Assembly: GCA_963575745.1 (NCBI GenBank)
Contig: CAUYUJ010000019.1
Location: 62,001-119,521, forward strand
Origin: Prorocentrum cordatum
Taxonomy: Eukaryota
Direction: 5' to 3'
DNA length: 57,521 nt
Shown: positions 3,447 through 26,623 of the stretch, piece after piece
Layout: each line of letters begins with the position of its first letter
Numbering within the stretch: position 1 is the first letter of the stretch
Translations under genes and position numbers: made by a program
Notes under the pieces: generated by a model
The model's database searches: none
What the model was told of the DNA's origin: nothing
Seen by the model: the letters and a program-made list of their open reading frames with translations, nothing else

Positions 3447-3740
3447 GGCGACGCCGTGGCTGCAGGTAGCCCTGCGACCGGCGACGCTGTGGCCGCGGGT
3501 AGCCCCGCGCCTGGCGACGCTGTGGCCGCGGGTAGCCCCGCGCCTGGCGGCACTGTTGTCGCGGGCAGCTCCGCGCCTAGTGCCCCGGCGGCTGCTGGCA
3601 TCCCAGCGCCCGTGGACCCGGCGGCTGCGGGTAGCCCCGCGCCGGAGGTCCCTATGGAGGCTTCCACTCCATCACCTACGGTCCTTGCAGCGGGTAACCC
3701 CGCGCAAGGGCGCCTGGAGGCTGCGGGAAGCTCCGCGCCT
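3447..3740 (+). repeat. 33-bp coding tandem repeat (GDAVAAGSPAP-like) in the Pol linker
   Basis: GC(G/A)GGTAGCCC(C/T)GC-like cores at 3462, 3495, 3528, 3561, 3627, 3690 and 3723. Confidence 0.9.
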
Positions 3741-3914
3741 CCGGGCATGGCCGTGCGCAGGCCAGCGGAAGTGCCGCTGGAGGGCGCATCACCGCCCAGG
3801 AGGGCGCGCCGGGGAGCTGACATGGAGATCGGCGGCGTGGATTTGACCAGTGAGTCGACGCACTTGCTGGGCGAGCTCTCTTCGGTGTTGTCTTCGTTTG
3901 GCGTGTGCTGGACA

Positions 3915-4565
3915 GGTGTTGCAGAGGTTTTCGGGCCAGGGCGGTTCACGAGCCGCTCGTCTGCTTTCGACCTCCCGCCTGGCACTGCCATGGACGTCCG
4001 TTCTGGATACGATTTCACACAGGCTGTCGAGCGAGAGCGGGCCCGCGAGACCAGACAGCGGGAGAGACCGGCGCTGCTCGTCGGCTCGCCTCCCAACGTA
4101 GCCCTTTCTGCCATGCAGGGCCTCGCTCCGGACAGCCAGGAGTGGAAGCAGAAACTTGCAGAGGGCCTCACTCATCTTGAATTCGTTTATGATCTGTACA
4201 AAGACCAAATGAAGGACGGCTTGTTCTTCTTGCACAAGCATTCGGCCTCTTCTGCAAGTTGGGACCTGTGGATGGTCCAGGAGATCGCTGGCATGGAGGG
4301 CGTGCACACCGTCCTTGGAGATCAGTGCCCCTATGGCCTTTGGTCTGTTGATCTGTACGGGCCGGCTTTCGTCCAGAAGGCTACCAGATGGCTTACCAAT
4401 TCTGCGGCCATCGCACGTGCCGTCGGCAGCCGGTGCACTAACCGAGACTGCCCGGACAACGCTCGGAAGCATAGGCACTGTCAGCTGATCGAAAACCCCA
4501 GGACTTGGAGGGGTAAAGAGCGCTACCCTCTCAAGCTCGTGACTGCGATACTCAAGGGATTGAGG
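3915..4565 (+). other. C5 cytosine DNA methyltransferase-like domain inside Pol, catalytic motifs degenerate
   Basis: Ordered motif-like segments: AEVFGPGRF (I-like), DVRSGYDF, LLVGSPPNV (IV, PPC expected), FFLHKHS (VI, E expected), DQCPYG..QKATRWLTN (VIII-like), YPLKLVTAI (X-like). Recognised by eye only. Confidence 0.6.
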
Positions 4566-6486
4566 GAGGAGCTGCACGCTAAGCACGTGTTGTTCTCATT
4601 TGAGGCGGGCGCTCACGTTGATGAGCCCGACGCCTGGGACATCCACCCGGAGTGGTACGGCCACGTCGTCGACGCCACGACTGGCGTGAAGTTGGACGCA
4701 GGTCTTGTGTCCAAGGCCCGCGGTGAGGAGATGGACTTCCTCAGCGGCCTGGGCGCGTACTCCTACGACACCGTCGACAGGTGCATCGAGGAGACGGGGC
4801 GCCGCCCCATACCCACCGGATGGGTTGATGTCAACAAGGGGCAGCCCGACGCACCTCAAGTGCGTAGCCGGCTCGTGGTGAAAGAAACGAGGTATCACAC
4901 GAACCTCGACACGAGCGGCGGCAGCAGCTTCAGCCAGACACCGCCCTACGAGGCGTTACGGATGCTGTGTAGCTGCCAGATGACAGTCGCCAGCCAGATG
5001 GAGGTAGACTACGTCATCATCTTCGTCGACATCACCCGTGCACATCCTCATTGTATGATTCGCCGTAAAGTCTGGGTGGTGTTGCCGCCAGAGGACCCCA
5101 AGGCGGCGGAACCTGGCGTATGTGGACTCCTTGAGCGGAGCCTGTACGGCCTCCGCGACGCCGGACAGTCGTTCGAGCTGCTCGTCCGCGAGACCATGGA
5201 GGCCCTCGGTTTCAAGACAGGCCTGTGGTGCGGCGTAGTGTTCTTCCACGAGCAGCGGCAGATCCAGGCGTACGTGTACGGTGATAACTTCGTAGCACGT
5301 GGGTCTCGTGCAGAGGTCCGCTGGTTCCACGAATCACTATCTGTTCACATGTCGGCCAAGGTGGAGGGCATTCTCGGCCCGGATCCATCGCGAGGCGACT
5401 CCCTGGAGGTCGTCTGCCTCAACCGGGTGTTCCGGTATGTCAGAGCAGCCGGAAACGAACCCGAGCGCATCGAGATCGAAGCGGATGCACGGCATGTGGA
5501 GATCTTGCTCCACCAGGCCGGCCTCTCTGCGGGGCGCACCGTGCCCCTCAGCACGCCGGGCGTTGCGGCGAAGGACGTGGACGTCGGGAAGCCGCTGGGC
5601 GCCGAGGCGGCGACGCTGTTCAGAAGCATGACGATGAGGGCGCAGTATCTCAGCGAGGACCGCCCTGACATTCGCTTTGCTTGCAAGGAGATTGCCCGCT
5701 TCATGGCGGAACCCTGCGAGCTGGGGGCGAAGATGCTCAAGAGGCTGTGTCGCTATCTTCTGGGAGTCCCACGACTCGTCCAGAGGATGGAGCGGCAGGA
5801 GTTGCCGACGTTCATGGACGGCATCTCGGATGCAGACTTCGCTGGCTGTTCAAGGACACGGAAGAGCACGAGCTGCCACGCGATCAAGATGGGCAACCAT
5901 ACGATACGCTTTGCGAGTGCCACGCAGAGCGTGATCGCACAGAGCAGCGGGGAGAGCGAGTGCTATTCCCTCGTGCGGTGCGCTTCGGCACTCATCGTCA
6001 TGGGCAACTTGATGCGCGACCTCGGGCGCGAGTTGCCCCTGCGCCTCCTGGGAGACGCAACCGCCGCGAGCGGCGTGGCTCGCAGGCGGGGCGCTGGGCA
6101 AGTACGTCACATCGAAGTTGGGACGTTGTGGCTCCAGCAGATCATCACTGAGAAGAAGATGGTCCTGGGCCGGAGGCCCGGCAAGGAAAACGAGGCAGAC
6201 CTCGGCACCAAGCACCTGGCTCAACGCGAGCTGTGGGAGTGCTTGGCCCGGCTTGGCTTCGTCGCCATGGGCGGCCGCTCAGAGAAGTCCCCGCGTGCCT
6301 CCATCGCGCACTTGGGCCTCAAGTTGGAGGCGGGGGCGAGCGGCGCCGAGGCTACGGCGGCGACGGCAGCAGCAGGCGCGCGCAGGTTGTGCGGGTAGCT
6401 CCGCCTTCGCTGCGTGCGGCCCGGCGGACGCAGGCAGACGGGAAGCCCTGAGTGCGCTGCTGGTGCACCCTCACGGCTTGGAGGGC

Positions 6487-6586
6487 TGATGAAGTATGCC
6501 TGCGTGCCGCGTGTATGCATAGACACTCCTTGACTATCCGTGGGCCCTGTTGGGCTCAAGTGCGATGCGAGCATAAAAGCTTGTCA
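6487..6586 (+). repeat. Candidate 3' LTR (~100 bp)
   Basis: TGA...TCA ends, short purine run GGAGGG just upstream, ATAAAA near the 3' end, and satellite sequence resumes at 6587. The 5' LTR is not available to confirm. Confidence 0.6.
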
Positions 6587-7100
6587 CTCGGGTTATCTCG
6601 ACAGGGACTGTCAGTTTTCTGTACAAAACTCGAGCTCTAGGCCAGCGAAAGAGCTGATACGCACCGAAACCGATGCATAATAAGCAGGCGCAATTGTCTG
6701 TTGCATCCAGAGGTCTGAACTCGGTCTGCTACTCGAGCTAGGTCCGCGAAACTATTTCTATCGTTCGGGTCATCTTGAGAGGTGCTGTCCGTTTTCGCAC
6801 GTAACTCGGGCTGTAGGAGAGCTACAGAGCTCATACGAACAGAAACTGATTTGGAATCACCAGGCCCGTTCGTCTGTTGCATCCAGAGGTCTGAACTGGG
6901 TCTGCTACTCGGGCTAGGCCGCAAAACTATTTGTATTCTTCGAGTAATCTTGACAGATGTTGTCCATTTTCTGTATTGAATTCGGGCTGTAGGAAAGCTA
7001 CAGAGCTGGTGCGCACAGAAACTGGTGCAGAAGCATTGAGAGCGTTCGTCTGTTGCATCGAGAGGTCTGAACTCTGCTACCCGAGCTAGGTTCACAAAAC
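6587..7100 (+). repeat. ~177-bp tandem repeat, about 3 copies
   Basis: TCTGTTGCATC(C/G)AGAGGTCTGAACT..CTGCTAC.CG.GCTAGG recurs at about 6696, 6873 and 7049. Confidence 0.9.
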
Positions 7101-7469
7101 TAGGCGCCGGCGGTAAACCGTCAACCTTTCTTACCGCCGGGGGACTCGTAGAGCTTCCTGACCATATATCATGTCCAAAGAGTTAGCAGAGAACGAATAG
7201 TTTTTCAGCCCGAGCGCTGATAGCAGACTGATCTCAGGCGTCTAGTGATATCCCATTGCTGTGCTGAACAGTTCTATAACTCATCTGCAGCGTGTAGAAA
7301 AAACATTAGAGAGAACATCGCAGAGTACGAATCCGTGTTTGCCGTCTGCGCTCACAACAGACCCAAACCAAGCGTCTAGATGCTTCGCGCCTCATGATGT
7401 CCTTCTGATTTTTCTGCCGAAGAGTTCAGTGAAGAAATTCACCACTATTTGGGAACATTGTCGGTCGAA

Positions 7470-8300
7470 TACGAATAGTTTTGTGAACCTAGCTCCCAGT
7501 GCTTCTGCATTAGTTTCTGTGCGTAGCTCTGTAGCTCTCCTACAGCCCGAATTCACTACAGAAAACGGACAACTTCTATCAAGATGACTCGAAGAATACA
7601 AATAGTTTTGCGGACCTAGCCCGAGGCAGACCCAGTTGAGACCTTTGGATGCAAGTGACGAACGTGCCCGATGACTCCGAATCAGTTTCTGTGCGTATGA
7701 GCTCTGTAGCCTTCCTAGAGCCCGAGTTACGTGCGAAAATGGACAGCACCTCTCAAGATGACTCGAATGATACGAATAGTTTCGCGGACCTAGCTCGAGT
7801 AGCAGACCGAGTTCAGACCTCTGGATGCAACAGACGAACGCGCCTGATTATTCTGCATCGGTTTCTGTGCGTATCAGCTTTGTAGCTCCCCTAGAGCTCG
7901 AGTTGAGTACAGAAAACCGACAGTCCCTGTCGAGATGACCCGAGCGATGCGAATAGTTTTGCGGACCTAGCTCAAGTAGCGGACCGATTTCAGACCTCTG
8001 CATGGAACAGGCGGACGCGCCTGATGTCTCCGAATCGGTTTATGCGATTACCAGCCTGTAGCACCTCTACAGCCCGAGTTAAGTACAGAAAACCGACAGC
8101 ACCTCTCAATGTGATTCGAACAATAAGAATAGTTTCGCGAACCTAGCTCGGGCAGCAGACCGAGTTCAGACCTCTCGTGTAACAGACGAACGCGCCTGAT
8201 GATTCTGAATCTGTTTCTGTAAGTATCATCTCTGTAGCTGTCCTATAGCTTGAGTTAAATACAAAAAAACGGTCAACGCGTATCAAGATGACTCGAAACA
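7470..8300 (-). repeat. Same ~177-bp tandem repeat, inverted, 4-5 copies
   Basis: AATAGTTT(T/C)GCG(G/A)ACCTAGC recurs at about 7601, 7776, 7952 and 8128 (reverse complement of the 6587-7100 unit). Confidence 0.9.
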
Positions 8301-8885
8301 GCCGATCCCGCCGGGCTGCCTTTTGGCAGTAATATCTACCCGATCGAGCTGAGATCAAGACGGCGAGCGGGAATAAGATTGAATATCACGGGAAAAAATA
8401 CTAGAGCTCTAACGAATGGTTGAAGTTCGAGAACAAAATTTTCAACCGATCAAAAGTCACCAAAAGGTCGGTCCGTCGAGATTTTTCTTGCCAACTAGCT
8501 CTCCAGCGGCCCGGAATTACTCTTAAGCTTCCAGCAACTAGCTAAGGGAAGCTCTACGAGCTACTATTCTTATTCGACCGACAGTTTTTTCCAAATGATG
8601 GTGAATTTCGTTGCTGAACTCGAGCTGCAGAGCAGCTCGAGAGCTCTACGGCCGAAAAATCAGAAGGACATCATGAGGCGCGAAGCATCTAGACGCAGAC
8701 GCCAAACACGGATTCGTACTCTGCTATGTTCTCCCTAATGGTATTTTCTACACGCTGCAGATGAGCTATAGAACTGTTCAGTACAGCAATGGGATATCAC
8801 TAGACGCCTGAGATCAGTCTGCTATCAGCGCTCGGGCTGAAAAACAATTCGTTCTCTGCTAATTCTTTGGACATAATATGTGTAA

Positions 8886-8944
8886 GGAAGCTCTACGAGT
8901 CCCCGGCGGTAAGAAAGGTTGACGGTTTACCGCCGGCGCCCAGT
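8886..8944 (+). repeat. Type copy of a dispersed ~58-bp hairpin end motif (Helitron/Helentron-like terminus)
   Basis: GGAAGCTCTACGAG-N3-CCGGCGGTAA-14-nt loop-TTACCGCCGG-CGCCCAGT. Other copies: 7101(-), 9136/12276 (split), 13245/14811 (split), 18422, 18684, 20202(+), 23300, 23587, 23926, 24260, 24786, 25172, 25636, 30043(-). Confidence 0.85.
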
Positions 8945-9173
8945 TCTTGGAAATGGTACTGTTTCCTTGGACTTACTCGTGCTGCAGATGAGCTACAAAG
9001 CTGTACAGCAATGGGAAGGGAATCATCAGGGGCAATGGCGAAATGTACCCTAGACGTCTGAGATGAGTCCGCTATCAGCGCTCGGGCTGAAAAATATTCG
9101 TTCTCTGCTAACTCTTTGGTCGTAATATATGGCAAGGAAGCTCTACGAGTCTCCCGGCGGTAAGAAAGGCTGA

Positions 9174-12100
9174 GAGGTTGAGGAGGTGGAGGTGGAGAGG
9201 CCAATCGTTGAGAGGCCTCTCCGAAGGAGGAGGTGGAGAGGTTAAGGAGGTTAAAGAATGAGGCCAACCGTCTACGCAGAAGTTATCGACGTGATATGAT
9301 TATGTGCAGATGTCCCCCAACAAAGCGTAAGGTCATATATATTATCAAACATTTAGTGGTGGATGGGAGGGAGACGGAGGACCGTGAGGAGTGGAAGGAG
9401 GAGCTCGACAAGTTCGTTCGTTTCAAGGTGTCGTCCGAGGAGGTACGCAATTCCACCAACAGTATGATGGAGGAGATCAGGATGAGGGCTGTACATGAGG
9501 TACGATCCACATCAGTTGTGGGAATTAGTATGGCGCTGCTTCTCAGAGCACGGGCTCGGCTGAAGACCCAGAGGGCTACTGGGCCAGATGGGATACCGTG
9601 CGAGATTCTTAGGAGCTTGCCGTGGTGTGCTCTCAGAGCGATCCAGAAGTTGTTCGATAAAATCATCAAGCTCACGACTCCGTATCCTCAGTCGTGGCGT
9701 GAGATCCTCGTCTCTTTTATGCCAAAAAAATTCCAGGGATTACTAAGTTAAAAGACGGTCGTTTGCTTTGTATGCAGAATGCTGTTTCGAGATGGTTCAG
9801 TTTCTGTATTGTTCTCCTGGTTGAGGGCCATATTGAAAGAAACGGAGTGTTTCGTCATATTGGGTTGTATGGTTTCCAGGAACATCTTCGTACACACGAA
9901 ATCACGGCTAGCATCAAACATATAGGTCAACATGCTGCACACTGGGGAAAAGGGGAAACGGCACACTTGGCGAACGCTGATGTCCTCCAGGCGTTCGATC
10001 ACTGCACGGTGGCCAATGTCAGGCGCGGGTTGGATCATGCGAGTGTGCCCCTGTGCCTACAGTATGCTCTACTTAACCCCTTGTGTGAATGTGTAGGCAC
10101 TGTCTATTATGATGGGATTGAGGTTTTTGGAGGTAAGGTGGGACAAATGTATTCGGACGGGAGGGCCTGAGGGCCCATTGGCTTTCAATCTTATTGTTGC
10201 TGCTATGTGGAGTTCCACGATTCGAGAATGGGACGTACTAGGACTATGTTATCGTATTGAGTTTGCGACTGGCTCGACTAGCTGTGTTTCGATTATTACT
10301 CACTTCCTTTGGGCGGACAACTGTTATGTTCTGGCTCGGAGTCGAGAGGAACTCACGCGCATGTTACACGGTCTAACTACACAGTTACGTGACTATGGTA
10401 TGAAATGGAAAGAGTCCAGTCTATTGTACATGGTGTTCGGGGTTGATTCTCCGCGAGATGCGGAAGGGGAAATATTACGCACTGCTGATCTTGTTCTCTC
10501 GATGGGGTCGGAGGATTCGGGAGTGTATCGATTTAGAAGAGTGACGGAGATGGAGGTGCTTGGGGCTCATATTTGTTCTGAACTACATGTGAATGAGCAT
10601 CCAGATTTGGATGCTAGTATTGACTCTGCTCGCAGGGCTTTCTGGGGGCAGGCGACCTTCTTCCGCTCCACGGCCATCCCGTTGAAAGATAAGTATGAGA
10701 GGTATGCACAGAGGGTTCAGAGTATTGTTCTCTACGCGGCGGAAGGTTGTACGGTCGACTCTAGTTCATTGAGTGCCCTTCATATCTTTGAGGGTAAGTT
10801 CCTGGCTGTCATGTCTCGTTGTATACGGAGGGAAGGGGAAAGTTATCAGGAATGGAATACGAGGAGGTATGCACGTGCGAGACAAAAATTTCATGCTGCA
10901 CACTATGCGGGTATTGTACAGAAGTTTCTCAGAGTGCATTGGATGTGGGCAATCGATGTCCATGATTTTGCCCATAGGTTGATCACAGATCAGGAGGCGC
11001 TGAAGGCAAACTCGACAAGAGCTTGGAGAGATTCTCGTTTCTCATGCCTGGCGTTTGGCCGACTGTGGGATAGAATGAGGACAGATTCAAGCGAGGCTCT
11101 CAGATGTTGGGGGAAATGGAAGGAGGCCAGCTCAATGACACGACATCGTGGGGGACAGGAGAGTGTAGGACTTCGTCCGTGGTACTGTTCATTGGAATCG
11201 TTTTATGGTTTATCCTGGTGGGAGTTCTTTGCTGGAAGTTTTGAACATTTCATGGATTTCGCTGCACATGTTTGTTCTAGTACTATGTTGAAGTATTTCC
11301 AAAAGAAATGCAAAGGCTTGGCGTCCTCAGGAGTGCCTGTGTTCTTGAACTTGGATGAGGATGGAGGGGTTCATATAGGTCAGGATCGGGAGGATACACC
11401 AGCTTATAGGGATCGTCTCAGCAAACGTATCGCGTTGCATAACATGCGTTGCACACAGTGGGACCTCGAAACGGATGGGATACCACTGGATATCCAGGGG
11501 GATTCACTGCTTGTGATTAACTGGCTCTGCGGGAAATGGAAAGTATTAGCTCAGGTATATCAGAAAAGGGTGGATACTCTGATTAATAAGTTGGACGAGA
11601 TGCAGGACACATACTCGGTGAGGCCTCCAGAGGCTGGCCGTGACTTCTTCTCTCATTCTTTTCGGGAATGGAACCAGAGAGCTGACTTACTGACCCATCA
11701 GGCCCGTCAGGGCCACGTGTAGGCCGAGTTCACTTACCTCGGCGATTTTGAATCTCAGTGTTATATTCCTTGCCTTATCAAAGCCGGCTTTGATGGGGGC
11801 GTTTGTAGCCGCGGAAGTGCCTGTGGAGTGTGGATACAGATAGGTCTGCGAAACAAATATATCTTCTCGCGGACCGACATCATTTCAAGGATGTGTATCT
11901 TGCGGCTTGGTGTCTGCCACCAAGCGCCACTGTCACAGATACGGAACTTTCAGCGGCGGAGCGCATATGCGATGTGCTCCCACAGGTTGTGCAGACCTTC
12001 TTTGATCATTCGCAGTGATAAGTCACACATTGTTTCATCTTTATCTGTGTTCTTGTTTATTCCAACAGCTTCGCTGTTCATTACTCATTCGTTTGTCTTT

Positions 12101-12275
12101 TGTGTGCTTTGCGTTTGATTGTGTCATTGCGGGCATGTGATTCTCTTTATTCCTTCAGCTTCGCTGTTGTGTTATAAGAGCTGACTGCTTGCGTGATAAG
12201 TAAGAGGCTCTGTTTCGCCTGATACTTTGTTGGACCTGGCCTTAGTGGCCAAGACGGTCCCAGCAAAGACGCAAA
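9174..12275 (+). mobile_element. 5'-truncated non-LTR retrotransposon (RT + RNase H) inserted in the hairpin loop, 12-bp TSD
   Basis: RT motifs ATGPDGIP, LYGF, ADVLQAFD, IRTGGPEGP, FLWADN and VLGA across ORFs 9233-9751, 9763-10170 and 10109-11722 (frameshifts near the A-run ~9724 and T-run ~10124). T-rich 3'UTR and short A tail. TSD AAGAAAGG(C/T)TGA at 9162-9173 and 12276-12287. Confidence 0.9.
11489..12018 (+). pseudogene. RNase H domain of the non-LTR element, motifs in permuted order
   Basis: IQGDSLLVINW (11498), HSFREWNQRAD (11654-11686), then after a TAG in the same frame AGFDGG..ACGVWI (11789), then after a frameshift TVTDTELSAA (E at 11944). Confidence 0.75.
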
Positions 12276-12309
12276 AAGAAAGGTTGACGGTTTGCCGCCG
12301 CCGCCCAGT

Positions 12310-12440
12310 GGAATATATACCTCGTAGAGCTCTTCGGCATCGATGAGCTAGAGGAATTCCGGCGCGGGGTGGAGCTAGTACCTCGTAGAGCTCTTCGTCA
12401 CCGATGAGCTAGAGGAATTCCGGCGCGGGGTGGAGCTAGT
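12310..12440 (+). repeat. Partner end motif (61-bp unit, two tandem copies) abutting the hairpin terminus
   Basis: ACCTCGTAGAGCTCTTC..GAGCTAGAGGAATTCCGGCGCGGGGTGGAGCTAGT at 12319 and 12380. Related copies at 26325(+), 18741(+, partial), and about 8493-8561, 21407-21467, 22905-23025 and 24739-24784 (-). Confidence 0.8.
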
Positions 12441-12629
12441 TCGCCGACCCGACCAACAGAGACAATGTGGCACATTTGGGTCGGTTTTGCTAAGATTTGA
12501 AAGATATTCGACAATTCATTTTAAGAAACCAGTTTTTTCGCACCTGTAGTTGGATATGCCGCGTTTGCCAGTCAAATTGTCAGGTCCGTAGGTGCAGTAT
12601 TACGATCAAAACACTTGGAGCAGCCGACT

Positions 12630-13160
12630 GTGTTCCGAGTCATCTTGACACGCGTCCACGGTTTTCTGTACTTAACTCGAGATTTCGGAGAGCTATAGAG
12701 CTGATACTTAGAGAAACCGATTCAGAATCATCAGGCTTTTTCGTCTGTTGCATCCAGAGGTCTGAGCTCGGTTTGCTACTCGAGATAGGTCCGTAAAACT
12801 TTTTGTATTCTTCGAGTGATTTTGACCAGTGATGTCGGTTTTATTTACTCAACTCAAGATTCCGAGGAGCTAAAGAGCTGGTGCGCACATAAACCAATTC
12901 AGTATCACCAGGCGCGTCCGTCTGTTGCAATAAGAGGCCTGGACTCGATCTGCTACTCGAGCTAGGTCCACGACACTATTCGTATTTCTCAAGTTCTCTT
13001 TACAGGCGCTGTGGGTATTCTGTACATAACTCGAGCTGTAGCACAGCCACTGAACTGGTACGCACAGAAAGCGATCTAGAATCATCCGGGGCATTCGGCT
13101 GAAGCATGGAGAGCTCTGAAGAGAGTCCGCTACTCTCGAGCTAGGTCCGCAAAACTGTTC
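12630..13160 (+). repeat. ~177-bp tandem repeat, about 3 copies
   Basis: CGTCTGTTGCATCCAGAGGTCTGAGCTCGG at ~12742, a similar unit at ~12919 and a degenerate one at ~13096. Confidence 0.85.
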
Positions 13161-13257
13161 GTAGGCGACCGATTTTTTAAGAGTTTTTTGGCCCTCGCTT
13201 TAGAAGTTTCCTTCGCGTATTTTGAGGAGCGCTGAGCAAGAAAAGAGGTCTACGAGG

Positions 13258-13899
13258 TTCACGATATGAGGGCTCTTTGGCTTGAGCTACACCGGCTCCC
13301 GACACAGGAGTTTCAGCGTAGGACTGAGGCTCTTAATGCATACAGGCTGCAATTGGGAATTGAAAGTTCCGAGGAGGATGATTCGCAACGAGGGGGTCCT
13401 CAGAGTTCTACTTCCAGGAATGCATTGACGCGGAGCGGCAAGAAGCATCGGAAACGGCAGAGATGTTGCACATGCGATTGATCCTGCACGCTTGATTTGT
13501 CATTGCGTTGCCTTTCTTCATTGATTGAGTGCATTCGTTGCTTCCTTGAACGTGACTTTCCGTGATTTGTCACGTGGTGCCTCAAAGTCGGCCTTTGAAC
13601 CTCGCTGTTTTTCACTTTGTTTCACTTTCTTACCTGCATTCTGTCCTTTACTCTCTTGTACATTCTCAGTGGTGTTGAGACGGTAATCGCTGTATAAACC
13701 TGTGGTTACTGTATGGTCTCTCACTGCTTTTATTGTCAGTGAATCTTTGAGTTACATTCTCGTGTATTGTATACTTGTGCATTCCTGTACAGCTGCGCTG
13801 TTTGTGCACTTGTACTTAATCTCTGCAGCTTCGCTGCTTAGGTTCTTTGTGTTTAGGCCTGCTCCCATGGGAGCTCGAACCGGCCTTCGCAAAAAAAAA
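13258..13899 (+). mobile_element. Short retroposed insert (3' remnant or non-autonomous partner) ending at the hairpin-loop target site
   Basis: Preceded by the end-motif remnant GAGGTCTACGAGG (13245-13257). Short ORF 13266-13481, T-rich UTR, nested stem-loop 13855-13886, A9 tail, then CCTGGTTGA. Confidence 0.6.
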
Positions 13900-13908
13900 C
13901 CTGGTTGA

Positions 13909-14812
13909 AGTTTTTGGATTTGATGTTTCACAATCTCGTGCGTACTTCAGGATTTATCGCGAGTGGCCGTCGTGCGGAATTGAACAGAATCAGAGACCTT
14001 TGGAATGATATGTTTGTTGCTATGGAGCGGGACTTCCTGCGGGAGGAGAGGAGGATGAAGGAGTGGACTTCGGCTATGGTTGGGAAAGGTGTGGGAAGGT
14101 GCTGCAAGATTTTCTTTGGCCAGGTTCCGAGCGCACCAAAGCCGCCAGGTGATGGCGGTTCTTCAAGCGTTTACAAGGCCGCTTTGGAGGAGCATCGACA
14201 AACACATCTGCAGAACGAGCAGTGTGAAGCTACGCTTGACATGATTTTTCGTTTAGATGAGACCCAGAGGGGCCTGCTGGGAACGTGGATGAAAGTCGAG
14301 CGCAATCTGAATGATCCCGAACGTCTCCAGTGTAGTTTCAATCTCTGTCATGTAACTTGTCATAGGAAACGGAGTGGAAGGTTGACTCGGGATGAAGATG
14401 AGGCGATGACGTCGCTCATGACTTCTGTATTTCCCTCGGCGTAATTTCTTTGTTTGGGGTGCGCACCATTCTCCTACATTCTTTGGTTTGTGCAGGTTCT
14501 TCCTTTGATGGAGATATCGTAGCACGGTCGGTTGTCGCATCATCGATGTGCCTCTGCGGTTTCGACATACTTCGGACTTTGTGTTTGCGTTGACTCTTGC
14601 CATGCTGTGTGTGTGTGTGTGTGTGTCGGGCATGCGCGCATCTTGGTATAAGAGCTCCGCGTGCTTTTCACTTTGTTCGGAATAAGAGTTTCGCATGTGC
14701 CCACTTCCGCTCAAAGAGTGGTGGGTGTCTTGCCTGACTCTGTATGCCGCCCTTTTTCCTGCTAGCGACTGGGCCTGACGGCCCGCGCAGTCGTCCGCAA
14801 AGACCGCAAAAA
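13909..14812 (+). mobile_element. Second short retroposed insert at the same site, 12-bp TSD
   Basis: TSD AA(A/G)CCTGGTTGA at 13897-13908 and 14811-14822, followed by the right half of the hairpin (CGGTTTACCGCCGG). Frame open from the junction to 14444, T-rich UTR, nested stem-loop 14765-14794, tail CCGCAAAGACCGCAAAAA. Confidence 0.7.
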
Positions 14813-14843
14813 GCCTGGTTGACGGTTTACCGCCGGTTCCAAG

Positions 14844-17800
14844 TTGGCCTTGGGCGAGGAGGACGTCGATGGGGCCCGGGCCACTGCTGGCGCTCGTCGC
14901 AGCGGCTGGGGCGGAGTGCTCGACTCTGCCAGGCGAACTGTCATCAAGCTCACGACCAGCTCGCACCGGGCGCTCCTGAAGAAGCTGCCCGAGATGATGT
15001 TTCAGAGGCAGTATGGCCACGAGTACTATTGCTCTCATCACACCTGGACTTTGTATTGCAAGGGGATCGTGGCGCTGGCGTTCCAGGCAAGCTCCGCCGT
15101 TCATCACAAAATGGACGACTTCTGGACGGACCCGCGCGCAGACCAAATCGAGGTGGACCAGCTGGCCGCGGGAGAAGAGGACGGCGAGGGGGGGGGGGCG
15201 GCATCGTGGATGCGCTGGGCGACGGGCGCGCAAGGCTGCACGCCGAGGTCGTCGACGGCGTTGTCGGGGAGGGCGCGGCCGCCGGTACTGCTGGGGAGGG
15301 GAAGCCCGAGCAGGAGCAGCAGCAGGCGGTGGAATGCAAGGCGCGGCTGGACCACGACATGAAGATAAACTGGCTGCATCGTGGCGACAGGGGCCCCCTG
15401 AAGTCCATGGACATGTACCATTACGCCATGTACGTGTACACGGCGCAGGCCAACCCGCTCCACTTCGACCCGCAGGACTTCGAGACGTACGCGTTCGCGG
15501 GCACGCACCCAACTGCCACCTTCCGAGTGCAGAAGCTCCGCGTCGGCGCGCCGTTCAGGGTGCCCAAGTTCTTCGGCTTCGCGATGCCATCGAAGGAGAA
15601 AGAGGCAGAGGTGAACGCGCTGTTCAAGTCTGTGATCTTTCGTCCGTTGCAGCCTGCTGAGAAGGGGGCTGCGGCCTGGGCGCCCTACAGGGCCGGTGTC
15701 GACGCGTCTGGGAAGCATAAGCCTGCCTGGGAGGAGTGGTGGGCCAAGCAGTTGGCGTTGTCCAGGCAGTGGGAGGAGTGCGAGCGGCGAGCTGGAAAGT
15801 GGTTCACGATCGAGGACATCGATCTGAACCGGGGCTCAGAGGATGGCCTGAGCCATTTTGCACAGCGCCCCAGCGCCGCCGAGTTCATGGCACGCTGGAC
15901 CGTGCAGGTCGCGACGAACCTCGACGTGGAGGCGGAGGCGAAGGAGCGGCCGCGAACCAAGGTCCGTCTGGAGTCCAAGGACTTCGAGCAGTCTGCTGAG
16001 CTGGAGGCAATGGGAATCGGCTTGCGGGGAGGCAGACGAGGAGGGGGGGGCGGGCGCCGGCGGCGGAGCGCTGGGCGGTTTTGCTCAGGAAGTGGACGAG
16101 GGCGAGGCGGACGAAGCGTGGGCGGCGCACCGACAGATGCCCGCGCACGCCGTGAAGGATAGCGAGGTGCCCGCGGTGGCCCAGTTGGAGCTTATTCGTG
16201 GGTCATCACAAAGCTTGGTCTATAAGAATATCTTCCTTGACGGCTATGCGAAAGACCATAAGCCGCAGCCTGCTGCCGCGAGTACTGGAATGTAGACCGG
16301 CTTCCGGTCTCGAGTTGGACGACTCTCAGTTCGAGGAGGGCAAAGCACAGCAGAAGGAGGCGTTCCGATACAGGAAAAAGGGAGCAGAGGGCTTGCCTGG
16401 GGATGGCGACGGGCGGAGCGGCCTCGCGGGTTCGGCGCCTGCCGTGCTCGTTCCTGGTCGGCCGCCGGCGCCCGCGGTTGCCGGCGACGAGAAGTGGCCG
16501 CCGCGGGCGCGCGACATCGCGGAGAGGCTGTTTGACGAGTGGGCGAACAGGGCGGAGAACCCCGTGACGTTCAATAAGGAGCAGAAGGCGGTGGTCGCCC
16601 CGGTCGTGGGCCAGGTGGAGGCCATCGTGGCATGCAACCAAGATCTGGACAGCGGAAAAAGCCCTAAGCCGGTGGAGCAGATGGCTCTCCTGTTGCACGG
16701 GGAGGGCGGGGCGGGGAAGACGGAGGTGGTGAAACTGCTGCGACGTCTGCTCAACGAGGTGTTCGGCGCGGGATCGGAGATCGCCGTGGCCTCGTCGAAC
16801 AGCGCTGCGCGCGTCATCGGGGGGGGGCGATCCACGGCGGCTTCGGGCTGAGCGGCCAACAGGCCATGGACATCAGAACGCTGTCTGGCCAGAAAGTCGA
16901 TGACATCGTGGACCGCATGAACGACCTCAAGGCCGTCATCGTGGAGGAGGTGTCCATGGTGCCGCCCCAGCTTCTCGGCGCTGCATCGTTTCGCGTGTGC
17001 AAAGCCCGTAAGGCTCAGTATAATTGCGATGTGAATCTGTACATGGCGCGGGGCCACATGTTCGGGAGGGTAAAAAAAAATATCAGTTGGGGCCGGTGAG
17101 CGGCAAGGGCAGAAGGTCTCCCTTGCTGCAGCCCGAGGCGCCGGTTCACGTCCGCAATGGGCAGTCCATGTTCCTGGACGGGGTCACCCACGCGATGTTT
17201 CTGTGCGAGACGCACCGCTTCAAGGACCGTCTCGTTACTCCGCACGCGCCCTGCCCTTTCATGCCCAGCTTCTTGAAGACCATGAGGCAGGGCAAAAAGT
17301 TTACGGCCGAGCAGAAAAGGATGGTGCAAAAGTGGGTGGTCCGACCTGGTAAGAACGACAAGCGGTTGCAGGACCCCCATGTCAAGGACGGGTTCGAGAT
17401 GGGCATCGCCTGGGAGGCCGTGCACAGGCAGATGCAGTATCGGGCCGTGCGAGAGGCCAGGGAGAAAGGGCAGATGCTGCTGTACGTGCAGGCCGTGGAC
17501 CTGCCTCCAAGGCCATTCGGTGCGGAGCATCACGAGGCCATGCTGCAGGTGCCGAACGTGAACAACACTGGCCACCTCATCGGCATGTGCCCGCTGTGCA
17601 TCGGCATGCGTGTGCGGTTGAACGTGAAGTTGTCGGCGAAGCACCAGATCGTCCAGGACGCCGTGGGTGAAGTCGTGGACGTGAGGTTCCACCCGCGAGA
17701 GTTCGAGACGCCAGACGCGGATTGGCGCGAAAAGAAGCTTCACGACGCCCACCGGCTCGGATATTATCGATGCAAACGTTTGCCGCGCGGTGTCCTCGTC

Positions 17801-18125
17801 AGGTTTGATGGCCTCGAGAAGGACTTTGGGTTCGGAAAAGGGGTCGTGCTGATCGCGCCGCGCAGGGCGTCCTGGGAGTGGAACCATCACTACGAAGACG
17901 AAGGCGAGCGAAAGCTTCGGAAGGCGAAGGTTACGAGGTACCAGATCCCGTTGCTGCCGGAGAAAGTTCGTACCGTGCAGACTGCACAGGACATGGCATT
18001 GATGCGGCCACCATGGTGCTCCAGAAGCCCATGAACATGGGCGCCGATGACTGGTGGCTACACCTGTACGTCATGCTCAGTTGCGTTCGCGTGGCCCACC
18101 GCGTGCTCGTCTACAACCTGCCACG
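14844..18125 (+). pseudogene. Helitron-type RepHel fragment: post-Rep region plus PIF1-family SF1B helicase, frameshifted and truncated
   Basis: GHEYYCSHHTW, WLHRG..MDMYHY, FAGTHP..VQKL, VIFRP. Walker A LLLHGEGGAGKT, ASSNSAARVIGG, Walker B VIVEEVSMV, YQLGPV, ETHRFKD, GMRVRLNVKL, RYQIPL..TVQTAQ, LYVMLS. Several frameshifts at G homopolymers (15188, 16043, 16819). Confidence 0.88.
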
Positions 18126-21100
18126 CGCCAGTCTCGAGCATCTAGATGCCCGAACTCGGTCTGCTACCCGAGCTGGATCCGAACAACTATTCGCACTCTG
18201 TTAAGTCGTTCCTCTTTTCCCTCTCCACCCTTTCCCTTCCTGCTCGTCATCCACCTCTTCCTCCCCCCCGTCCTTCTCCTTTCCGTTTTCCTCCTCCTTC
18301 TCGTCCTGAGCCTCCTCCGTCTCCTTCTCCTCCTCGCTCGTTCTTCGCCTCCGCGTCCTCCTCCATGAAACCGCGCCCTCGCGCGCGCGGAATGCGAGAT
18401 TGCTGCGCCCGCGCTCCACGTGGAAGCTCTACGAGCTCCCGGCGGTGACCAAGGTTGACGGTCTACCGCCGGCTCCCAGTTCGATCCTAGAACCAGTATT
18501 TTTATTACGGGTAGTGGGTTCTGCCACGTTTGCCAGTGAAATTCGCAGGTCCGTAGCTGCTATTACTTCCAAAAGACGTGGAGGAACCGAGTGTATAAGC
18601 CCCCAAGAATGATGTTGCGAGTTTTTGCGCTGAGTTCGGAGGAATCGCCATTCTGACAATCTGAGCACTCATTCGCGTGAAAAGAGCTCTACGAGGGTCC
18701 CGGCGGTCATCTGGTTGACGGTTTACCGCCGGCTGCCAGTAATTCCGGCGCGCCGGCGGGCTAGATGACCAACAAAAATCTTGACGGAAGTTTTTTGATT
18801 TATTTAGATTGAATGTCTCGAAATCTGCACATTTGCTGGAGCTTTCGTTTTTTCCCCATCTTCGATTTTTTTCTGCTTGCCATCAAAATATCAGGTCGAT
18901 CGGGGACACATTACTGTCAAAAAGCACCTAGGCGGCTGTTTAGTGTGATCTTAACAGGTGCTCTCAGTTTTGTCCACTTCACTCGAGCTGCATATGAGCT
19001 ACAGAGCTGTTTGGCACAGCAACCGTAAGGGAATCATCATATTCGCTTCTCTTAAGTATCTTGATGGCCGAACTTGGTCTGCTGCCTGAGCTGGATTTGA
19101 AAAACTACTCGTACTCTGCTAAGTTTTCAAGAGATGAGGAGGACTTTCTCGAGATAACTCGAGCTGCAGATGATCTACAGAGCGTTTTGACAACAATCGG
19201 GAGGGAATCTAGACGCCCGAACTCAGTCTGCTACCAGAGCCAGAAAAAAAAACAACTATTCATATGCTGCTAATTCGGCAACAGAGGATGATCGTTTTCG
19301 TAAGATAACAAGAGCTGCACATGATGTAAAGAGCTGTTTGGCACCCACATGAGAAGAACATCTGAAGACGGGTAGTCTCGAGTATCCGTATACAATGAAC
19401 TCGGTCTGCTACCAGAGCTGGTTCCGAAAAACTTTTCGTACTCTGCTATGTTTAAGCAGATGATAGTGATCTTGAGATACTTCGAGCTGCAGATGAGCTA
19501 CAGAGCTGTTTGGCACAGCAGTCAACAGGATATCATCACACGCGCTAGTCAGAAGTATCTACATGCTTGAACTTGGTCTGCTTCCAGAGTTTGAACCAGA
19601 AACTATTTTCATTTTATTTCGTCTAGAGATCACGATGCTTTTCTTGATGTAGCTCGAGCTGCAGATGGGACGAGAGCTGTTCGAAACAGCAATGAGACGA
19701 ATCTCATCAGGAGCGCTAGTTGTCAGTCTACATGCTTGAAATCGGTCTGCTACCAGAGCTGGAACCAAAAAGCTATTCGTACTCCTGCTGCTTGTCCTCT
19801 TCCTTATTCTCTCTTTCTCTTCTTTCTCCTTCATCTGCTCCTTCTCCTCTCTTTTTGCACCTTCTTCCCTTTTGCTCATCTTCTTCATCTTCATCATCAT
19901 CTTCCTTCCTCTTCTGCCCCTTCCAGCTTTTTCCTCCTGCTCGTGATGCTCCTTTTCCCTCCTCCCCTCCTTCTCCTCCGCCTGCTCGTCCTTCTCGTTC
20001 TTCTCCTTCTCGTCCTTCTCCTTCTCGTCCTCCTCCCCTCCTCCTTCTCCTTTCTCGTCCTTCTCCTTCTCGTCCTCAACCTCCGACATCTCCTTCTCGT
20101 CCTCGCTGCTTCTTCTCCTGCGCGTCCTCCTCCATGAAACCGCGCCCTCACGCGCGCGGAATGCAGGACTGCCGCGCCCGCATTCCATTCATGTGTGTCG
20201 AGGAAGCTCTACGGGGTCCTGGCGGTAACGAAGGTTGACGGCTTACCGCCGGCTCCCAGTTCTGCATTTCTTTTCAGAGAGAATGTTGGTTTTCCTACTT
20301 ATATCTACCACTTGGCACGCTACGGGGCTGATCGGCGCACGAATCGACGGGAAATCAGAGGCTTCGCGCCTATGCAGACGCCTGGGGGTGAGCCTGTTAC
20401 CAGATGCGACCGCATGCATTGTTTGCGCTCTGCATCTTTTCGAGATATTATATGAGTATTGACTTCACCTGTAGGTCAGCTACGGTGCTCTGATTCACCC
20501 CTCGGAACATCAAATGATCAGGCGCGTGAGTCTACAGTATTGAGACGTTTTAGATCGGCCTGCCACGAGAGCTGCGAAACACCTCCTGTGTGTTCTATAT
20601 ATTCACTTCGCTAGGCAAACTACGGTTCTGAAAGGCACACCTATCCACAGGACGTGATTAGAAACGCTAGTTTGAAGGATCGAGCCGCTTTTGATCGGTC
20701 TGCTGCCAGAGCAGACCGGAAAATATTTGCACTCTTCAAATGTTTGAAAGACGATATTGGCTTTCTCTACCTTGCGCAGGCTGCGGGCAAGCTACGGACC
20801 TGGGAAGCGCACCGTTGAGACAGAAAAGGTTAGGAACGCTAGTCTGGAGCATCGAGACGCCTGAGACCGGCCTGCTACAGAGCTGTGATCGACAAATGAT
20901 CTGTACTCTGCAAACAGCTACTAAGCTGTCAAGCACATCGTTCGATATTAAATCATCATGCTCTACATGCGGTGGGAGCTTCTTAAGATCGACAGATAGT
21001 CTTCAAACATTGTTCAACTTGAGTCGTGTACTTTCTTGCGTGGGGTGGTTGTCTCAACGGAACTCGAGCTGTGGGCAAGCAAAGAAGCTGTCATGCCATT

Positions 21101-26504: not shown

Positions 26505-26588
26505 GTGTCTGTGTTTGTGTATGTCTGTGTGTGTGTGTGTGTGTCTGATTGACTTTGAGCGTGTTTGCATGTAGAAGTGTGTGCGTGT

Positions 26589-26623
<35 letters not shown>

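What the first reader, a model, noticed from the sequence alone, without database searches (positions are those of the whole stretch)
9136..14843. Candidate site-specific retrotransposon system that targets the hairpin loop of another (rolling-circle) element's terminus
Seen: the intact motif (8886) reads CCGGCGGT-AAGAAAGGTTGA-CGGTTTACCGCCGG. At 9136 the motif stops after ..GG(C/T)TGA and resumes at 12276 with a 12-bp duplication around a 3.1-kb RT element. A second motif copy carries two stacked inserts (13258-13899, 13909-14812). The later one has a 12-bp duplication, AA(A/G)CCTGGTTGA, ending at the same GGTTGA|CGG position even though the loop sequence differs. That makes three insertions, one register, one orientation, in two motif copies. 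Known: sequence-specific non-LTR elements (R1/R2 in rDNA, CRE/SLACS in SL genes, Tx1 in Tx1D DNA transposons) exist and stack in tandem. Inference: a family specialised on a Helitron/Helentron-like terminal hairpin, disrupting the host's end signal. I do not know of this being described in dinoflagellates.
Basis: partly seen in the sequence, partly recalled or inferred. Interest (0 to 1): 0.87.

Follow-up and report, generated by a model that had tools for sequence, protein, structure and literature searches.

The report
Retrotransposons nested in a transposon's hairpin
Three A-tailed retroelement copies sit at the same position inside the end hairpin of an abundant Helitron-type transposon, which suggests a jumping gene that aims at another jumping gene, though this could only be checked within this one window.

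Summary
A ~60-bp motif occurs 10 times in the window (0 expected). It consists of an inverted-repeat word (GCTCTACGAG), a hairpin and about 8 nt. It has the architecture of the right end of Helitron2/Helentron-type (HLE2) non-autonomous elements.

Two of the 10 copies are split inside the hairpin loop.
- Copy 1 holds a 3.1-kb, 5'-truncated, mutated non-LTR retrotransposon (9174-12275) flanked by a 12-bp duplication (11/12 identical).
- Copy 2 holds two stacked A-tailed inserts (13258-13896 and 13909-14810). The second has a 12-bp duplication (11/12). The first has none; the left hairpin arm is missing instead.

All three 3' junctions share one register and one orientation. Full-length relatives of insert 1 carry an N-terminal APE-type endonuclease, a reverse transcriptase and an RNase H-like region. 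Inserts 1 and 3 share a 3'-terminal module.

None of 101 assessable copies of the motif in marine metagenome contigs carries such an insertion.

My best reading (confidence 0.6) is a target-specific APE-type LINE lineage that integrates into the HLE2 end hairpin. Genome-wide specificity could not be tested: no genome is held and the read tables were truncated. This would be a new variant of a known kind; Tx1L in Tx1D is the precedent.

The parts
8886..8946 (+). Intact reference copy of the target: right terminal sequence (RTS) of an HLE2/HINE-like element. It comprises the 3' subterminal inverted repeat GCTCTACGAG (8890-8899), a 10-bp stem, a 14-nt loop and the end CGCCCAGT.
   Evidence: DNA fold (stem predicted; whole 61-mer z -1.2)
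9136..9173 (+). Left half of the interrupted RTS copy 1. It ends with the upstream copy of the target-site duplication, AAGAAAGGCTGA (9162-9173).
   Evidence: (9050-9173 aligns to 8800-8922, 89.6%)
9174..12275 (+). Insert 1: a 5'-truncated, inactivated non-LTR retrotransposon. The ORF2 remnant spans 9239-12006 (RT, then an RNase H-like C-terminus). It has at least 2 frameshifts, an in-frame stop at 11720-11722 and a further frame change near 11860. The 3' UTR is about 12019-12275, with a two-tier hairpin (about 12225-12268) and the tail GCAAAGACGCAAA. The origin of 9174 to about 9215 at the 5' junction is uncertain.
   Evidence: RVT_1, E 0.002; 348 homologs at E<=0.001; best 51% identity; tblastn: aligns to residues 372-1240 of P0002 and 361-1278 of P0153
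12276..12309 (+). Right half of RTS copy 1: the downstream duplication copy AAGAAAGGTTGA (12276-12287), then the right arm and end. The arm carries 2 substitutions.
   Evidence: (aligns to 8911-8944, 94.1%)
12318..13257 (+). Body of the HINE-like element that carries RTS copy 2. It holds the 5' inverted repeat CTCGTAGAGC (12321-12330, repeated at 12382-12391 within a 62-bp tandem at 12317-12440), a central ~175-bp satellite (12631-13163) and the 3' subterminal repeat GGTCTACGAG (13247-13256).
13258..13896 (+). Insert 2: an A-tailed retrocopy with an ORF remnant (13266-13481), a 3' UTR with a hairpin, and an A9 tail (13891-13899) that overlaps the next duplication. There is no target duplication; the left hairpin arm of the target is missing at its 5' junction.
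   Evidence: (contigs of two runs match 13262-13521 and continue with unlike sequence to the left of 13262)
13897..13908 (+). Upstream copy of the duplication of insert 3 (AAACCTGGTTGA).
13909..14810 (+). Insert 3: a 5'-truncated A-tailed retrocopy with an ORF remnant to 14441. Transcript-derived relatives extend at least 55 aa further upstream. Its 3' end is a hairpin plus GCAAAGACCGCAAA, homologous to the 3' end of insert 1.
14811..14843 (+). Right half of RTS copy 2: the downstream duplication copy AAGCCTGGTTGA (14811-14822), the right arm TTTACCGCCGG and the end TTCCAAGT.
15359..18123 (+). PIF1-like helicase pseudogene with at least 5 frame changes. It has the same orientation as the motifs and is followed by an uninterrupted RTS copy at 18422-18482. 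It may be a remnant of an autonomous partner. No Rep domain was found.
   Evidence: RTS
7098..8565 (-). An uninterrupted HINE-like element on the minus strand. It has the RTS at 7098-7165, a central satellite (7500-8300) and the 5' inverted repeat at 8551-8560. It shows the full architecture of the target family.

Best explanation
A lineage of APE-type non-LTR retrotransposons (LINEs) integrates by target-primed reverse transcription at one position in the loop of the 3'-terminal hairpin of an abundant Helitron2/Helentron-type non-autonomous transposon. Non-autonomous or related RNAs that share the LINE's 3' hairpin-plus-GCAAA(n) module use the same site.

Inferred steps:
1. The element-encoded endonuclease recognises the right part of the hairpin region (GGTTGACGGTTTACCGCCGG).
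2. It nicks the bottom strand 9-12 nt upstream of GGTTGA|CGG. The T-rich 3' end released there primes on the A-rich RNA tail.
3. The top strand is cut at GGTTGA|CGG, giving a 12-bp duplication.
4. Most copies are 5'-truncated.
5. Because recognition lies on the right side, a new copy can enter behind the tail of an earlier one. This explains the stack of inserts 2 and 3.
6. The insertion separates the two hairpin arms and should disable that transposon end.

Shown: the anatomy, the duplications, the LINE identity of insert 1, the APE domain in full-length relatives, and the HLE2-like architecture of the target.

Inferred: the specificity, which part of the site is recognised, the order of the nicks, and the effect on the target element.
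For: (1) Two insertions have 12-bp duplications (11/12 identical each) that end at the same GGTTGA|CGG in loops of different sequence. The third A tail abuts the same register. All three have the same orientation as the motif.

(2) All 3 of 3 plus-strand ends of the form CGCAAAAA in the 57.5-kb window abut a loop plus GGTTGA. The only other match, on the minus strand at 18629, is unrelated. No other non-LTR RT was found in the window.

(3) Chance under mere A-rich preference is 3e-6 to 8e-5 for two events.

(4) Insert 1 is a LINE. It has 348 homologs at E<=0.001, with the best at 51% identity. A profile of 5 full-length relatives matches LINE-1 ORF2p (2e-14), R2 proteins, exonuclease III at N-terminal profile positions 12-265 (4.8e-5) and RNase H (0.0055). 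P0070 hits Pfam Exo_endo_phos at 5e-5, which is 23.6 bits against a cut-off of 24.5. APE-type LINEs make staggered nicks and include the known target-specific R1 and Tx1 clades (passages).

(5) Inserts 1 and 3 share GCAAAGAC(C)GCAAAA preceded by a two-tier hairpin. Each variant occurs once in the window.

(6) Insert 3 entered after the left arm had been displaced. It still used the same top-strand site and the same spacing.

(7) 0 of 101 assessable copies of the same motif in marine metagenome contigs have an A run at the site. This comes from 106 distinct contexts, 5 of which were too near a contig end. The loop is therefore not a general hot spot wherever the motif occurs.

(8) Uninterrupted paralogous forms, in which the motif end runs straight into the next element's 5' repeat, are present in contigs of 4 of 4 runs laid (joints 8943->12318 and 8944->12317).
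Against: - Everything rests on three events in one window, and this window was picked because it looked like this.
- Only two of the three events are clearly the same machinery.
- Insert 2 has no duplication, and its 5' junction deletes the left arm.
- Inserts 2 and 3 have no detectable RT, and their coding parts are unrelated to insert 1. A search for longer homologs of insert 3's ORF found none.
- Both first-nick sites are A-rich, and one lies at an older A tail, as for ordinary L1-like endonucleases.
- The endonuclease is absent from the copy in the window. It is known only from relatives of 24-45% identity.
- No copy of these retroelements was found anywhere else to look at its flanks.
- The metagenome copies come mostly from other organisms, and assemblies tend to lose repeats, so their emptiness is weak evidence.
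Confidence: 0.6

Rival explanations
1. Structure- or composition-driven hot spot. Ordinary, non-specific LINEs of this genome insert preferentially where a GC-rich hairpin exposes an A-rich loop, through cruciform or single-stranded character or through stalled replication. The shared register would then reflect the DNA structure, not an element-encoded sequence specificity.
For: The first-nick sites are A-rich: T|AAGAAA, and an A9 tail. The stem-loop is predicted in all copies folded. The three inserts have different coding parts, as expected if several families use the site.
Against: The top-strand site and the 12-nt spacing are identical in two events with different loop sequences. One of these came after the left arm, and hence the hairpin, had already been separated by insert 2. 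None of 101 assessable metagenome copies of the motif carries an A-tailed insert. Eight of 10 copies in the window, including the two at 7107 and 8917 with the same AAGAAAGG loop as copy 1, are empty. Inserts 1 and 3 share a specific 3' module.
Confidence: 0.22
2. Coincidence plus ascertainment. Non-specific retroelements fell by chance into a very abundant repeat, and the window was noticed because of it.
For: The target family is very abundant. Summed word depth of the motif flanks is 20,000-190,000, against 300-800 for insert 1, in runs X1 and X2. These figures are not copy numbers. The region 6.5-26 kb is a repeat cluster. The scan covers many windows.
Against: The loops make up about 0.1% of strand positions of the window. 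Chance is about 1e-6 to 8e-5 for two events and below 1e-6 for three, before also requiring the same nucleotide register and orientation.
Confidence: 0.08
3. The retroelement uses nicks made by the rolling-circle transposase, or by repair at the hairpin, rather than its own endonuclease. This would be endonuclease-independent priming at a recurrent lesion.
For: HUH Rep proteins recognise hairpins and nick nearby (passage). The copy in the window lacks an endonuclease.
Against: Regular 12-bp duplications point to two defined staggered cuts. The expected Rep cleavage is at the element end, about 8 nt after the hairpin, not in the loop (architecture passages). Full-length relatives do encode an APE domain.
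Confidence: 0.05
4. The insertions are not retrotransposition at all. The Helitron-type element captured foreign DNA at its 3' end, by end bypass or by recombination.
For: Helitron-type elements are known to capture sequence (abstracts listed).
Against: Capture by end bypass leaves the old hairpin whole and adds DNA after it. Here the hairpin is split in its loop, each insert ends in an A run in the same orientation, and two inserts are flanked by 12-bp direct duplications of loop sequence.
Confidence: 0.03

Closest known systems
Tx1L / Tx1D of Xenopus laevis (an APE-type LINE that inserts into a specific site of a DNA transposon)
   Same: A non-LTR retrotransposon with an APE-type endonuclease whose target lies in another transposable element. 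The element-encoded endonuclease is thought to set the site (passages read).
   Different: Here the target is the terminal hairpin of a Helitron2/Helentron-type element rather than a cut-and-paste transposon, and the host appears to be a dinoflagellate. Clade membership (Tx1 or L1) was not tested. Specificity here rests on three events.
R1-clade target-specific LINEs (R1Bm in 28S rDNA, TRAS1/SART1 in telomeric repeats)
   Same: APE-type endonuclease, defined bottom- and top-strand cuts that give a fixed target duplication, and insertion into a multicopy target (passages).
   Different: The target here is a transposon end, not a host multicopy gene or telomere. Relatives of insert 1 carry an RNase H-like C-terminal region. 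No phylogeny was made.
Helentron/Helitron2 (HLE2) elements and their non-autonomous derivatives (HINE, DINE-1)
   Same: The target element matches the described layout: an 11-nt inverted repeat a few nt from the 5' end and about 50 nt from the 3' end, a stem-loop between the right repeat and the 3' end, central tandem repeats, and head-to-tail neighbours (against passages). A Helitron2-like RepHel is reported from Symbiodinium microadriaticum (passage).
   Different: No Rep domain was found in the window. The TT target was not confirmed. The stem-loop has an unusually long, conserved loop (GGTTGACGGTTT).
RLE-type target-specific LINEs (R2, Utopia, NeSL, CRE)
   Same: Strict insertion into one site of a repeated sequence, sometimes in tandem stacks (passages).
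   Different: Those encode a restriction-like endonuclease C-terminal to the RT. Relatives of insert 1 have an N-terminal APE-like domain instead.

Membership tests
Non-LTR (LINE) retrotransposon | Reverse transcriptase of the non-LTR type | tested here: met
   Insert 1: Pfam RVT_1 is weak on the broken ORF (E 0.002). There are 348 homologs at E<=0.001. Nine of the 10 relatives scanned, including 8 of the 9 that are 678-1455 aa long, carry RVT_1 at E 4e-13 to 6e-4; one (P0053, 1660 aa) has no hit. P0153 carries RVT_1 at 3.6e-6. The profile of 5 relatives matches LINE-1 ORF2p at 2e-14 and R2 at 3e-10.
Non-LTR (LINE) retrotransposon | 3' A-rich tail, variable 5' truncation and target-site duplication (marks of target-primed reverse transcription) | tested here: met
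   A tails of 5, 9 and 5 nt. 12-bp duplications (11/12 identical) around inserts 1 and 3; none around insert 2. Insert 1 starts at residue ~361-372 of ~1300-aa relatives. Insert 3 starts at least 55 aa inside a related transcript ORF.
APE-type target-specific LINE (as in the R1 and Tx1 clades) | N-terminal apurinic/apyrimidinic-like endonuclease | tested here: inconclusive
   It is absent from the truncated copy in the window. It is present in relatives: the profile matches exonuclease III at N-terminal positions 12-265, E 4.8e-5. P0070 hits Exo_endo_phos at 5e-5, just under Pfam's cut-off. The motifs GLQE, D.N.E and SDH are conserved in the alignment.
APE-type target-specific LINE (as in the R1 and Tx1 clades) | The great majority of genomic copies lie at the same site of the same target sequence | not testable with these tools
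   No genome is held. In the window it is 3 of 3. No further copies were found in 120 metagenome loci, viral contigs or prokaryote genomes. The read tables were cut before the junctions.
APE-type target-specific LINE (as in the R1 and Tx1 clades) | RT phylogeny places it within the R1 or Tx1 clade | not tested
HLE2 (Helitron2/Helentron) and HINE non-autonomous elements | Short inverted repeats (about 11-16 nt): the left one a few nt from the 5' end, the right one subterminal | tested here: met
   CTCGTAGAGC(T) without an adjoining hairpin lies at 12321, 12382 and 26327 (+), and as its complement at 8551, 24738 and 24774. GCTCTACGAG lies directly before the hairpin in 10 of 10 motif copies, with up to 1 mismatch. 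In the metagenome loci, the exact 10-nt complement was found upstream in 12 of 83 copies, against 0.3 in shuffles; 2 of the 12 (L011) may be the right repeat of an oppositely oriented copy.
HLE2 (Helitron2/Helentron) and HINE non-autonomous elements | [quoted passage not shown] | tested here: met
   An 8-10-bp stem and a 14-18-nt loop lie 2-4 nt after the repeat. Similarity between copies stops about 8 nt after the stem. The criterion comes from passages.
HLE2 (Helitron2/Helentron) and HINE non-autonomous elements | Insertion between T and T, without target duplication | tested here: inconclusive
   The elements end in ...AGT or ...CAT. The next base is T in 6 of 10 window copies and is variable in the metagenome copies. 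Empty sites were not available.
HLE2 (Helitron2/Helentron) and HINE non-autonomous elements | An autonomous partner encoding Rep (HUH) plus a Pif1-type helicase with the same ends | tested here: inconclusive
   A PIF1-like pseudogene (15359-18123) is co-oriented with an RTS copy and lies about 300 nt upstream of it. No Rep or DUF6570 was found in the window. P0182 has DUF6570 and Helitron_like_N and is listed in the same cluster as the helicase hit. It shows no significant alignment with that hit (best E 3.9) and none with the window, so I did not use it.
Canonical Helitron (HLE1) | 5' TC, 3' CTRR, hairpin about 11 nt from the end, no inverted repeats, AT target | tested here: not met
   The ends are ...CCCAGT or ...GACAT, and inverted repeats are present. 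The criterion comes from the passage.
Replitron | Short direct terminal repeats; Rep without a helicase | tested here: not met
   The terminal repeats here are inverted, not direct. The criterion comes from passages.

The most novel reading that the evidence does not exclude
Dinoflagellate genomes may harbour a lineage of APE-type LINEs, with partners that borrow its 3' module, whose endonuclease reads the conserved terminal hairpin of Helitron2-type elements. That hairpin is present in very many copies and is nearly invariant across marine protists. The LINE would be a parasite of a parasite: it gains a safe, inexhaustible landing site and at the same time disables the rolling-circle element's end signal. 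That would set up an arms race between a retrotransposon and a rolling-circle transposon.
Probability: 0.45. Interest if true: 0.72.

Novelty: new variant of a known kind. Interest (0 to 1): 0.6.

Why it matters
Target-specific LINEs are known for rDNA, telomeres, small RNA genes, microsatellites and one DNA transposon (Tx1D). A LINE aimed at the end hairpin of a Helitron-type element would add a new class of target. It would also be a direct case of one mobile element disabling another's transposition signal. It would further give a defined 20-30-bp recognition site for an APE-type endonuclease from a very divergent LINE clade; single relatives gave no sequence match to solved structures. That site could be tested directly in vitro.

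In the listings of six literature searches I saw no paper describing a LINE targeted to a Helitron-type hairpin, or a target-specific LINE in dinoflagellates. I read only titles and abstract starts of those listings, plus the passages cited elsewhere.

Separately, the target motif itself is conserved almost letter for letter in at least 95 distinct contexts from marine metagenomes of very different base composition. That is of interest for the spread of Helitron2-type elements among marine protists.

Tried and rejected
Searches that found nothing or could not be run:
- Whole-genome search: no genome is held for this window.
- Earlier notes of the scan: none by place, by sequence or by words.
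- Rfam on 6500-26500 at E<=1: no match, so the motif is not a described RNA family.
- Viral contigs: 0 matches to the 20-mer and no relative of the LINE proteins.
- Prokaryote genome contigs: 0 matches to a junction pattern (A tail, up to 14 nt, right arm). There were 3 matches to the 20-mer. One is the same contig as metagenome locus L006, binned into a MAG. None was useful.
- BLASTN and TBLASTN of the three inserts and of full-length LINE relatives against the 120 metagenome loci and the window: no further copy. The flanks of other copies could therefore not be tabulated.

Read laying (4 runs, Logan contigs only): the tables of loose ends and joints are cut to the best-supported rows. They hold nothing for 9173/9174, 12275/12276, 13899 or 14810. 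Nothing can be said from them for or against specificity. Depths are sums over contigs and organisms, not copy numbers.

Protein searches that gave nothing usable:
- Single-sequence PDB searches with the helicase-region ORFs and with P0005 and P0002: nothing meaningful.
- Insert 3 ORF: no longer homologs.
- Protein Atlas: low recognition (1594), with hits to dynein coiled-coil clusters at or below 0.90. I discarded these as unreliable.
- P0182 (DUF6570 plus Helitron_like_N) is listed in the same cluster as the helicase hit P0151, but aligns to neither P0151 nor the window. I dropped it as evidence.

Ideas considered and rejected:
- A relic spliced leader at the 5' ends of inserts 2 and 3: judged by eye, there is only loose resemblance. 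No search was made on the insert ends. The search used a tolerance of up to 3 errors and found one match in the window, at 54187.
- Replitron and canonical Helitron identities for the target.
- Duplication of a single insertion: the inserts and loops differ.

Full report
**What is in the sequence**

The 20-mer GGTTGACGGTTTACCGCCGG occurs 10 times in the 57.5-kb window with up to 3 mismatches. None of 100 shuffles gave a match. All 10 copies lie between 7.1 and 25.7 kb.

With flanks, the conserved block is about 60 bp:
- (A)GGAAGCTCTACGAG
- 2-3 nt
- CCCGGCGGTAA
- 4-6 variable nt
- GGTTGACGGTTTACCGCCGG
- CnCCCAGT

Upstream sequence is shared only within subfamilies. Downstream sequence is unrelated between copies. 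As single-stranded DNA the block folds into an 8-10-bp stem with a 14-18-nt loop. The stem is predicted in all copies folded, but only one of the five whole segments is significantly more stable than shuffles.

**The interruptions**

Eight copies are uninterrupted. Two are split inside the loop.

In copy 1 the motif runs to 9173 and resumes at 12276. AAGAAAGGCTGA (9162-9173) and AAGAAAGGTTGA (12276-12287) are a 12-bp duplication, 11 of 12 identical. Independently, the self-BLAST aligns 9050-9173 to 8800-8922 and 12276-12309 to 8911-8944 of the neighbouring intact copy. The two halves overlap there by exactly those 12 nt.

In copy 2 the word GGTCTACGAG (13247-13256) is followed at once by foreign sequence. 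That sequence ends in A9 (13891-13899). Then comes AAACCTGGTTGA (13897-13908), a second foreign stretch (13909-14810) ending in GCAAA, then AAGCCTGGTTGA (14811-14822) and the right arm.

There are two amendments:
- Insert 2 has no duplication. About 10-14 nt of the target, the spacer and left arm, are missing at its 5' junction.
- Because of the A residues, only 9 nt of each duplication are unambiguous.

All three inserts have the orientation of the motif.

**What the inserts are**

Insert 1 (9174-12275) carries the remains of one long ORF in three frames, with an in-frame stop at 11720.

An exhaustive HMMER search with its largest piece found 348 proteins at E<=0.001, 75 at 1e-10 and 11 at 1e-30. 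The best has 51% identity. Several are 1263-1455 aa long. Insert 1 aligns to residues 372-1240 of P0002 and 361-1278 of P0153, so it lacks the first ~360 residues.

A profile of five of these long relatives matches:
- human LINE-1 ORF2p, E 2e-14, RT region
- R2 proteins, E 3e-10
- E. coli exonuclease III over N-terminal profile positions 12-265, E 4.8e-5
- an RNase H, E 0.0055, weak

One relative hits Pfam Exo_endo_phos at 5e-5, just below the curated cut-off.

The family is thus an APE-type LINE with RT and an RNase H-like tail. The window's copy is a dead, 5'-truncated member without its endonuclease.

Inserts 2 and 3 have no RT and no similarity to insert 1 in their coding parts. Insert 3's ORF has 81-86% identical relatives among protist transcriptome proteins. 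One of these extends at least 55 residues beyond insert 3's 5' end, so insert 3 is also 5'-truncated.

At the very 3' end, inserts 1 and 3 share GCAAAGAC(C)GCAAAA preceded by a two-tier hairpin. Each variant occurs once in the window. Insert 2 has a comparable hairpin and ends in CGCAAAAAAAAA. Only insert 1's 3' region folds significantly better than shuffles (z -3.1; the other two give -0.7 and -0.6).

I read inserts 2 and 3 as relatives or passengers that use the same 3' recognition module. This is inference.

**What the target is**

The word GCTCTACGAG precedes the hairpin in all 10 copies, with up to 1 mismatch. Its reverse complement CTCGTAGAGC(T) occurs without a hairpin at six further places. 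These are positioned as the other end of elements:
- (+) 12321...14843
- (-) 8560...7098
- (-) 24783...23585

These elements contain central tandem repeats: a ~175-bp satellite and a 62-bp unit.

Contigs of all four sequencing runs laid join the end of an intact motif (8943/8944) directly to the 5' repeat at 12317/12318. Head-to-tail neighbours without the LINE are therefore common elsewhere.

This layout has a left repeat a few nt from the 5' end, a right repeat about 50 nt from the 3' end, a stem-loop between the right repeat and the end, and central repeats. It is the layout described for Helentron/Helitron2 (HLE2) elements and their non-autonomous HINE/DINE-1 derivatives (passages read in PMC4067079, and PMC11417382). 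It is not the layout of canonical Helitrons or of Replitrons (PMC10288648). A Helitron2-like RepHel has been reported from Symbiodinium microadriaticum (one passage of PMC8788227).

One uninterrupted motif copy (18422-18482) lies just downstream of a co-oriented PIF1-like helicase pseudogene. That pseudogene spans 15359-18123, is 57-77% identical to a 996-aa protein with Pfam PIF1, and has at least 5 frame changes. I found no Rep domain in the window.

The same motif is widespread. The tally is as follows:
- 134 matches in 120 loci
- 16 matches in loci I judged to be chance bacterial hits
- 106 distinct contexts among the remaining 118 matches
- 95 of these with the left arm
- 5 too close to a contig end
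- 6 with a mutated or variant left side

The 10-nt complement of the pre-hairpin word is found upstream in 12 of 83 copies, against 0.3 in shuffles.

**Is it site-specific?**

For:
- There are three events with one 3' register and one orientation, in two loops of different sequence.
- The second cut falls at the same GGTTGA|CGG, with the same 12-nt spacing, in the two events that have duplications.
- One of those events occurred when the left arm had already been moved away by insert 2. Recognition must therefore lie to the right.
- All 3 plus-strand ends of the form CGCAAAAA in the window abut a loop.
- There is no other non-LTR RT in the window.
- If only A-richness mattered, the chance would be 3e-6 to 8e-5 for two events and 6e-9 to 7e-7 for three.
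- 0 of 101 assessable metagenome copies carry an A run at the site. The loop is not a general hot spot.

Against:
- This is one window, chosen for this feature.
- Both first-nick sites are A-rich, and one is an older A tail.
- Insert 2's 5' junction differs from the other two.
- The endonuclease is inferred from distant relatives.
- I could find no other copy of these elements whose flanks could be read.
- The genome is not held, and the read tables were cut before the junction rows.

I put 0.6 on an element-encoded target specificity. I put 0.22 on a structural or compositional hot spot. The remainder is split among chance, priming at foreign nicks and Helitron capture.

**Comparison with what is known**

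Target-specific non-LTR elements fall into the early-branching restriction-like-endonuclease clades and the APE-type R1 and Tx1 clades (passages of PMC4640811). Tx1L inserts into the DNA transposon Tx1D (passages of PMC1919474 and PMC6719617). That is the closest functional precedent.

The present case works like these elements. It differs in the target, the end hairpin of a rolling-circle-type element, and in the host. The host is apparently a dinoflagellate. A one-substitution match to the spliced leader, which I recalled from memory, lies at about 54165-54187 on the minus strand.

Clade membership was not tested. Six literature searches listed no description of such a system. I saw only the listings and the passages cited.

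**Verdict**

The claim of a specialised family is plausible but rests on three events. I rate it a new variant of a known kind, with interest 0.6.

Noticed in passing
window 247-6395 (+): A Ty1/copia-type LTR retrotransposon coding region lies just upstream of the repeat cluster. It has a gag-like ORF with a zinc knuckle (zf-CCHC, 5e-8) and a 1183-aa ORF with RVT_2 (6e-12).
   Followed up: partly
loci L001-L120 (metagenome contigs); e.g. L051:144-161, L014:2341-2358: The ~55-nt right-end motif is conserved almost letter for letter in at least 95 distinct contexts from marine metagenomes. The base composition of those contigs ranges from 36% to 56% GC. Some copies lie next to ordinary intron-free genes: RNase HII and Glu/Gln-tRNA synthetase in L051, pantoate ligase in L014. 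This suggests a Helitron2-type family spread widely among marine protists.
   Followed up: partly
window 11440-12006 (+) and relatives P0002, P0005, P0153: In this LINE clade the RNase H-like motifs appear in unusual order. GDS...W and RE.N..AD come first. FDGG...G.G and T.TELxA.E follow at the very C-terminus. This could be a circular permutation or two half-domains. The only support is a weak PDB profile match (E 0.0055).
   Followed up: no
window 15359-18123 (+): A PIF1-like helicase pseudogene of a repeated family. Summed word depth is about 500-1300 in two runs. It has a conserved N-terminal region of about 440 aa of unknown family, shared with P0151.
   Followed up: partly
window ~54165-54187 (-): A sequence one substitution away from the dinoflagellate spliced leader, as I recall it. 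It lies next to a long GGA repeat and may be a relic of a retroposed transcript.
   Followed up: no
window 12317-12440 and 26323-26432 (+): A 62-bp unit that begins with the 5' inverted repeat is itself tandemly duplicated: 97% identical between the two units at 12317-12440, and 78-85% identical to the copy at 26323-26432. The 5' end signal of the element is therefore present twice.
   Followed up: no
L086 (minus strand as fetched), upstream of the motif: In one metagenome contig an A-rich run (aaaaaaaataaaataaaaaaaa) replaces the right inverted repeat directly before the hairpin's left arm. It may be an A-tailed insertion at a different position of the same motif in another organism. Only 300 nt of flank were held.
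   Followed up: no
window 26400-28300, 38100-39000, 44900-45500, 47000-47600, 56500-57521: Long imperfect microsatellite blocks, (GT)n, (GA)n/(TA)n, (GAT)n and GC-rich triplets, fill much of the rest of the window.
   Followed up: no
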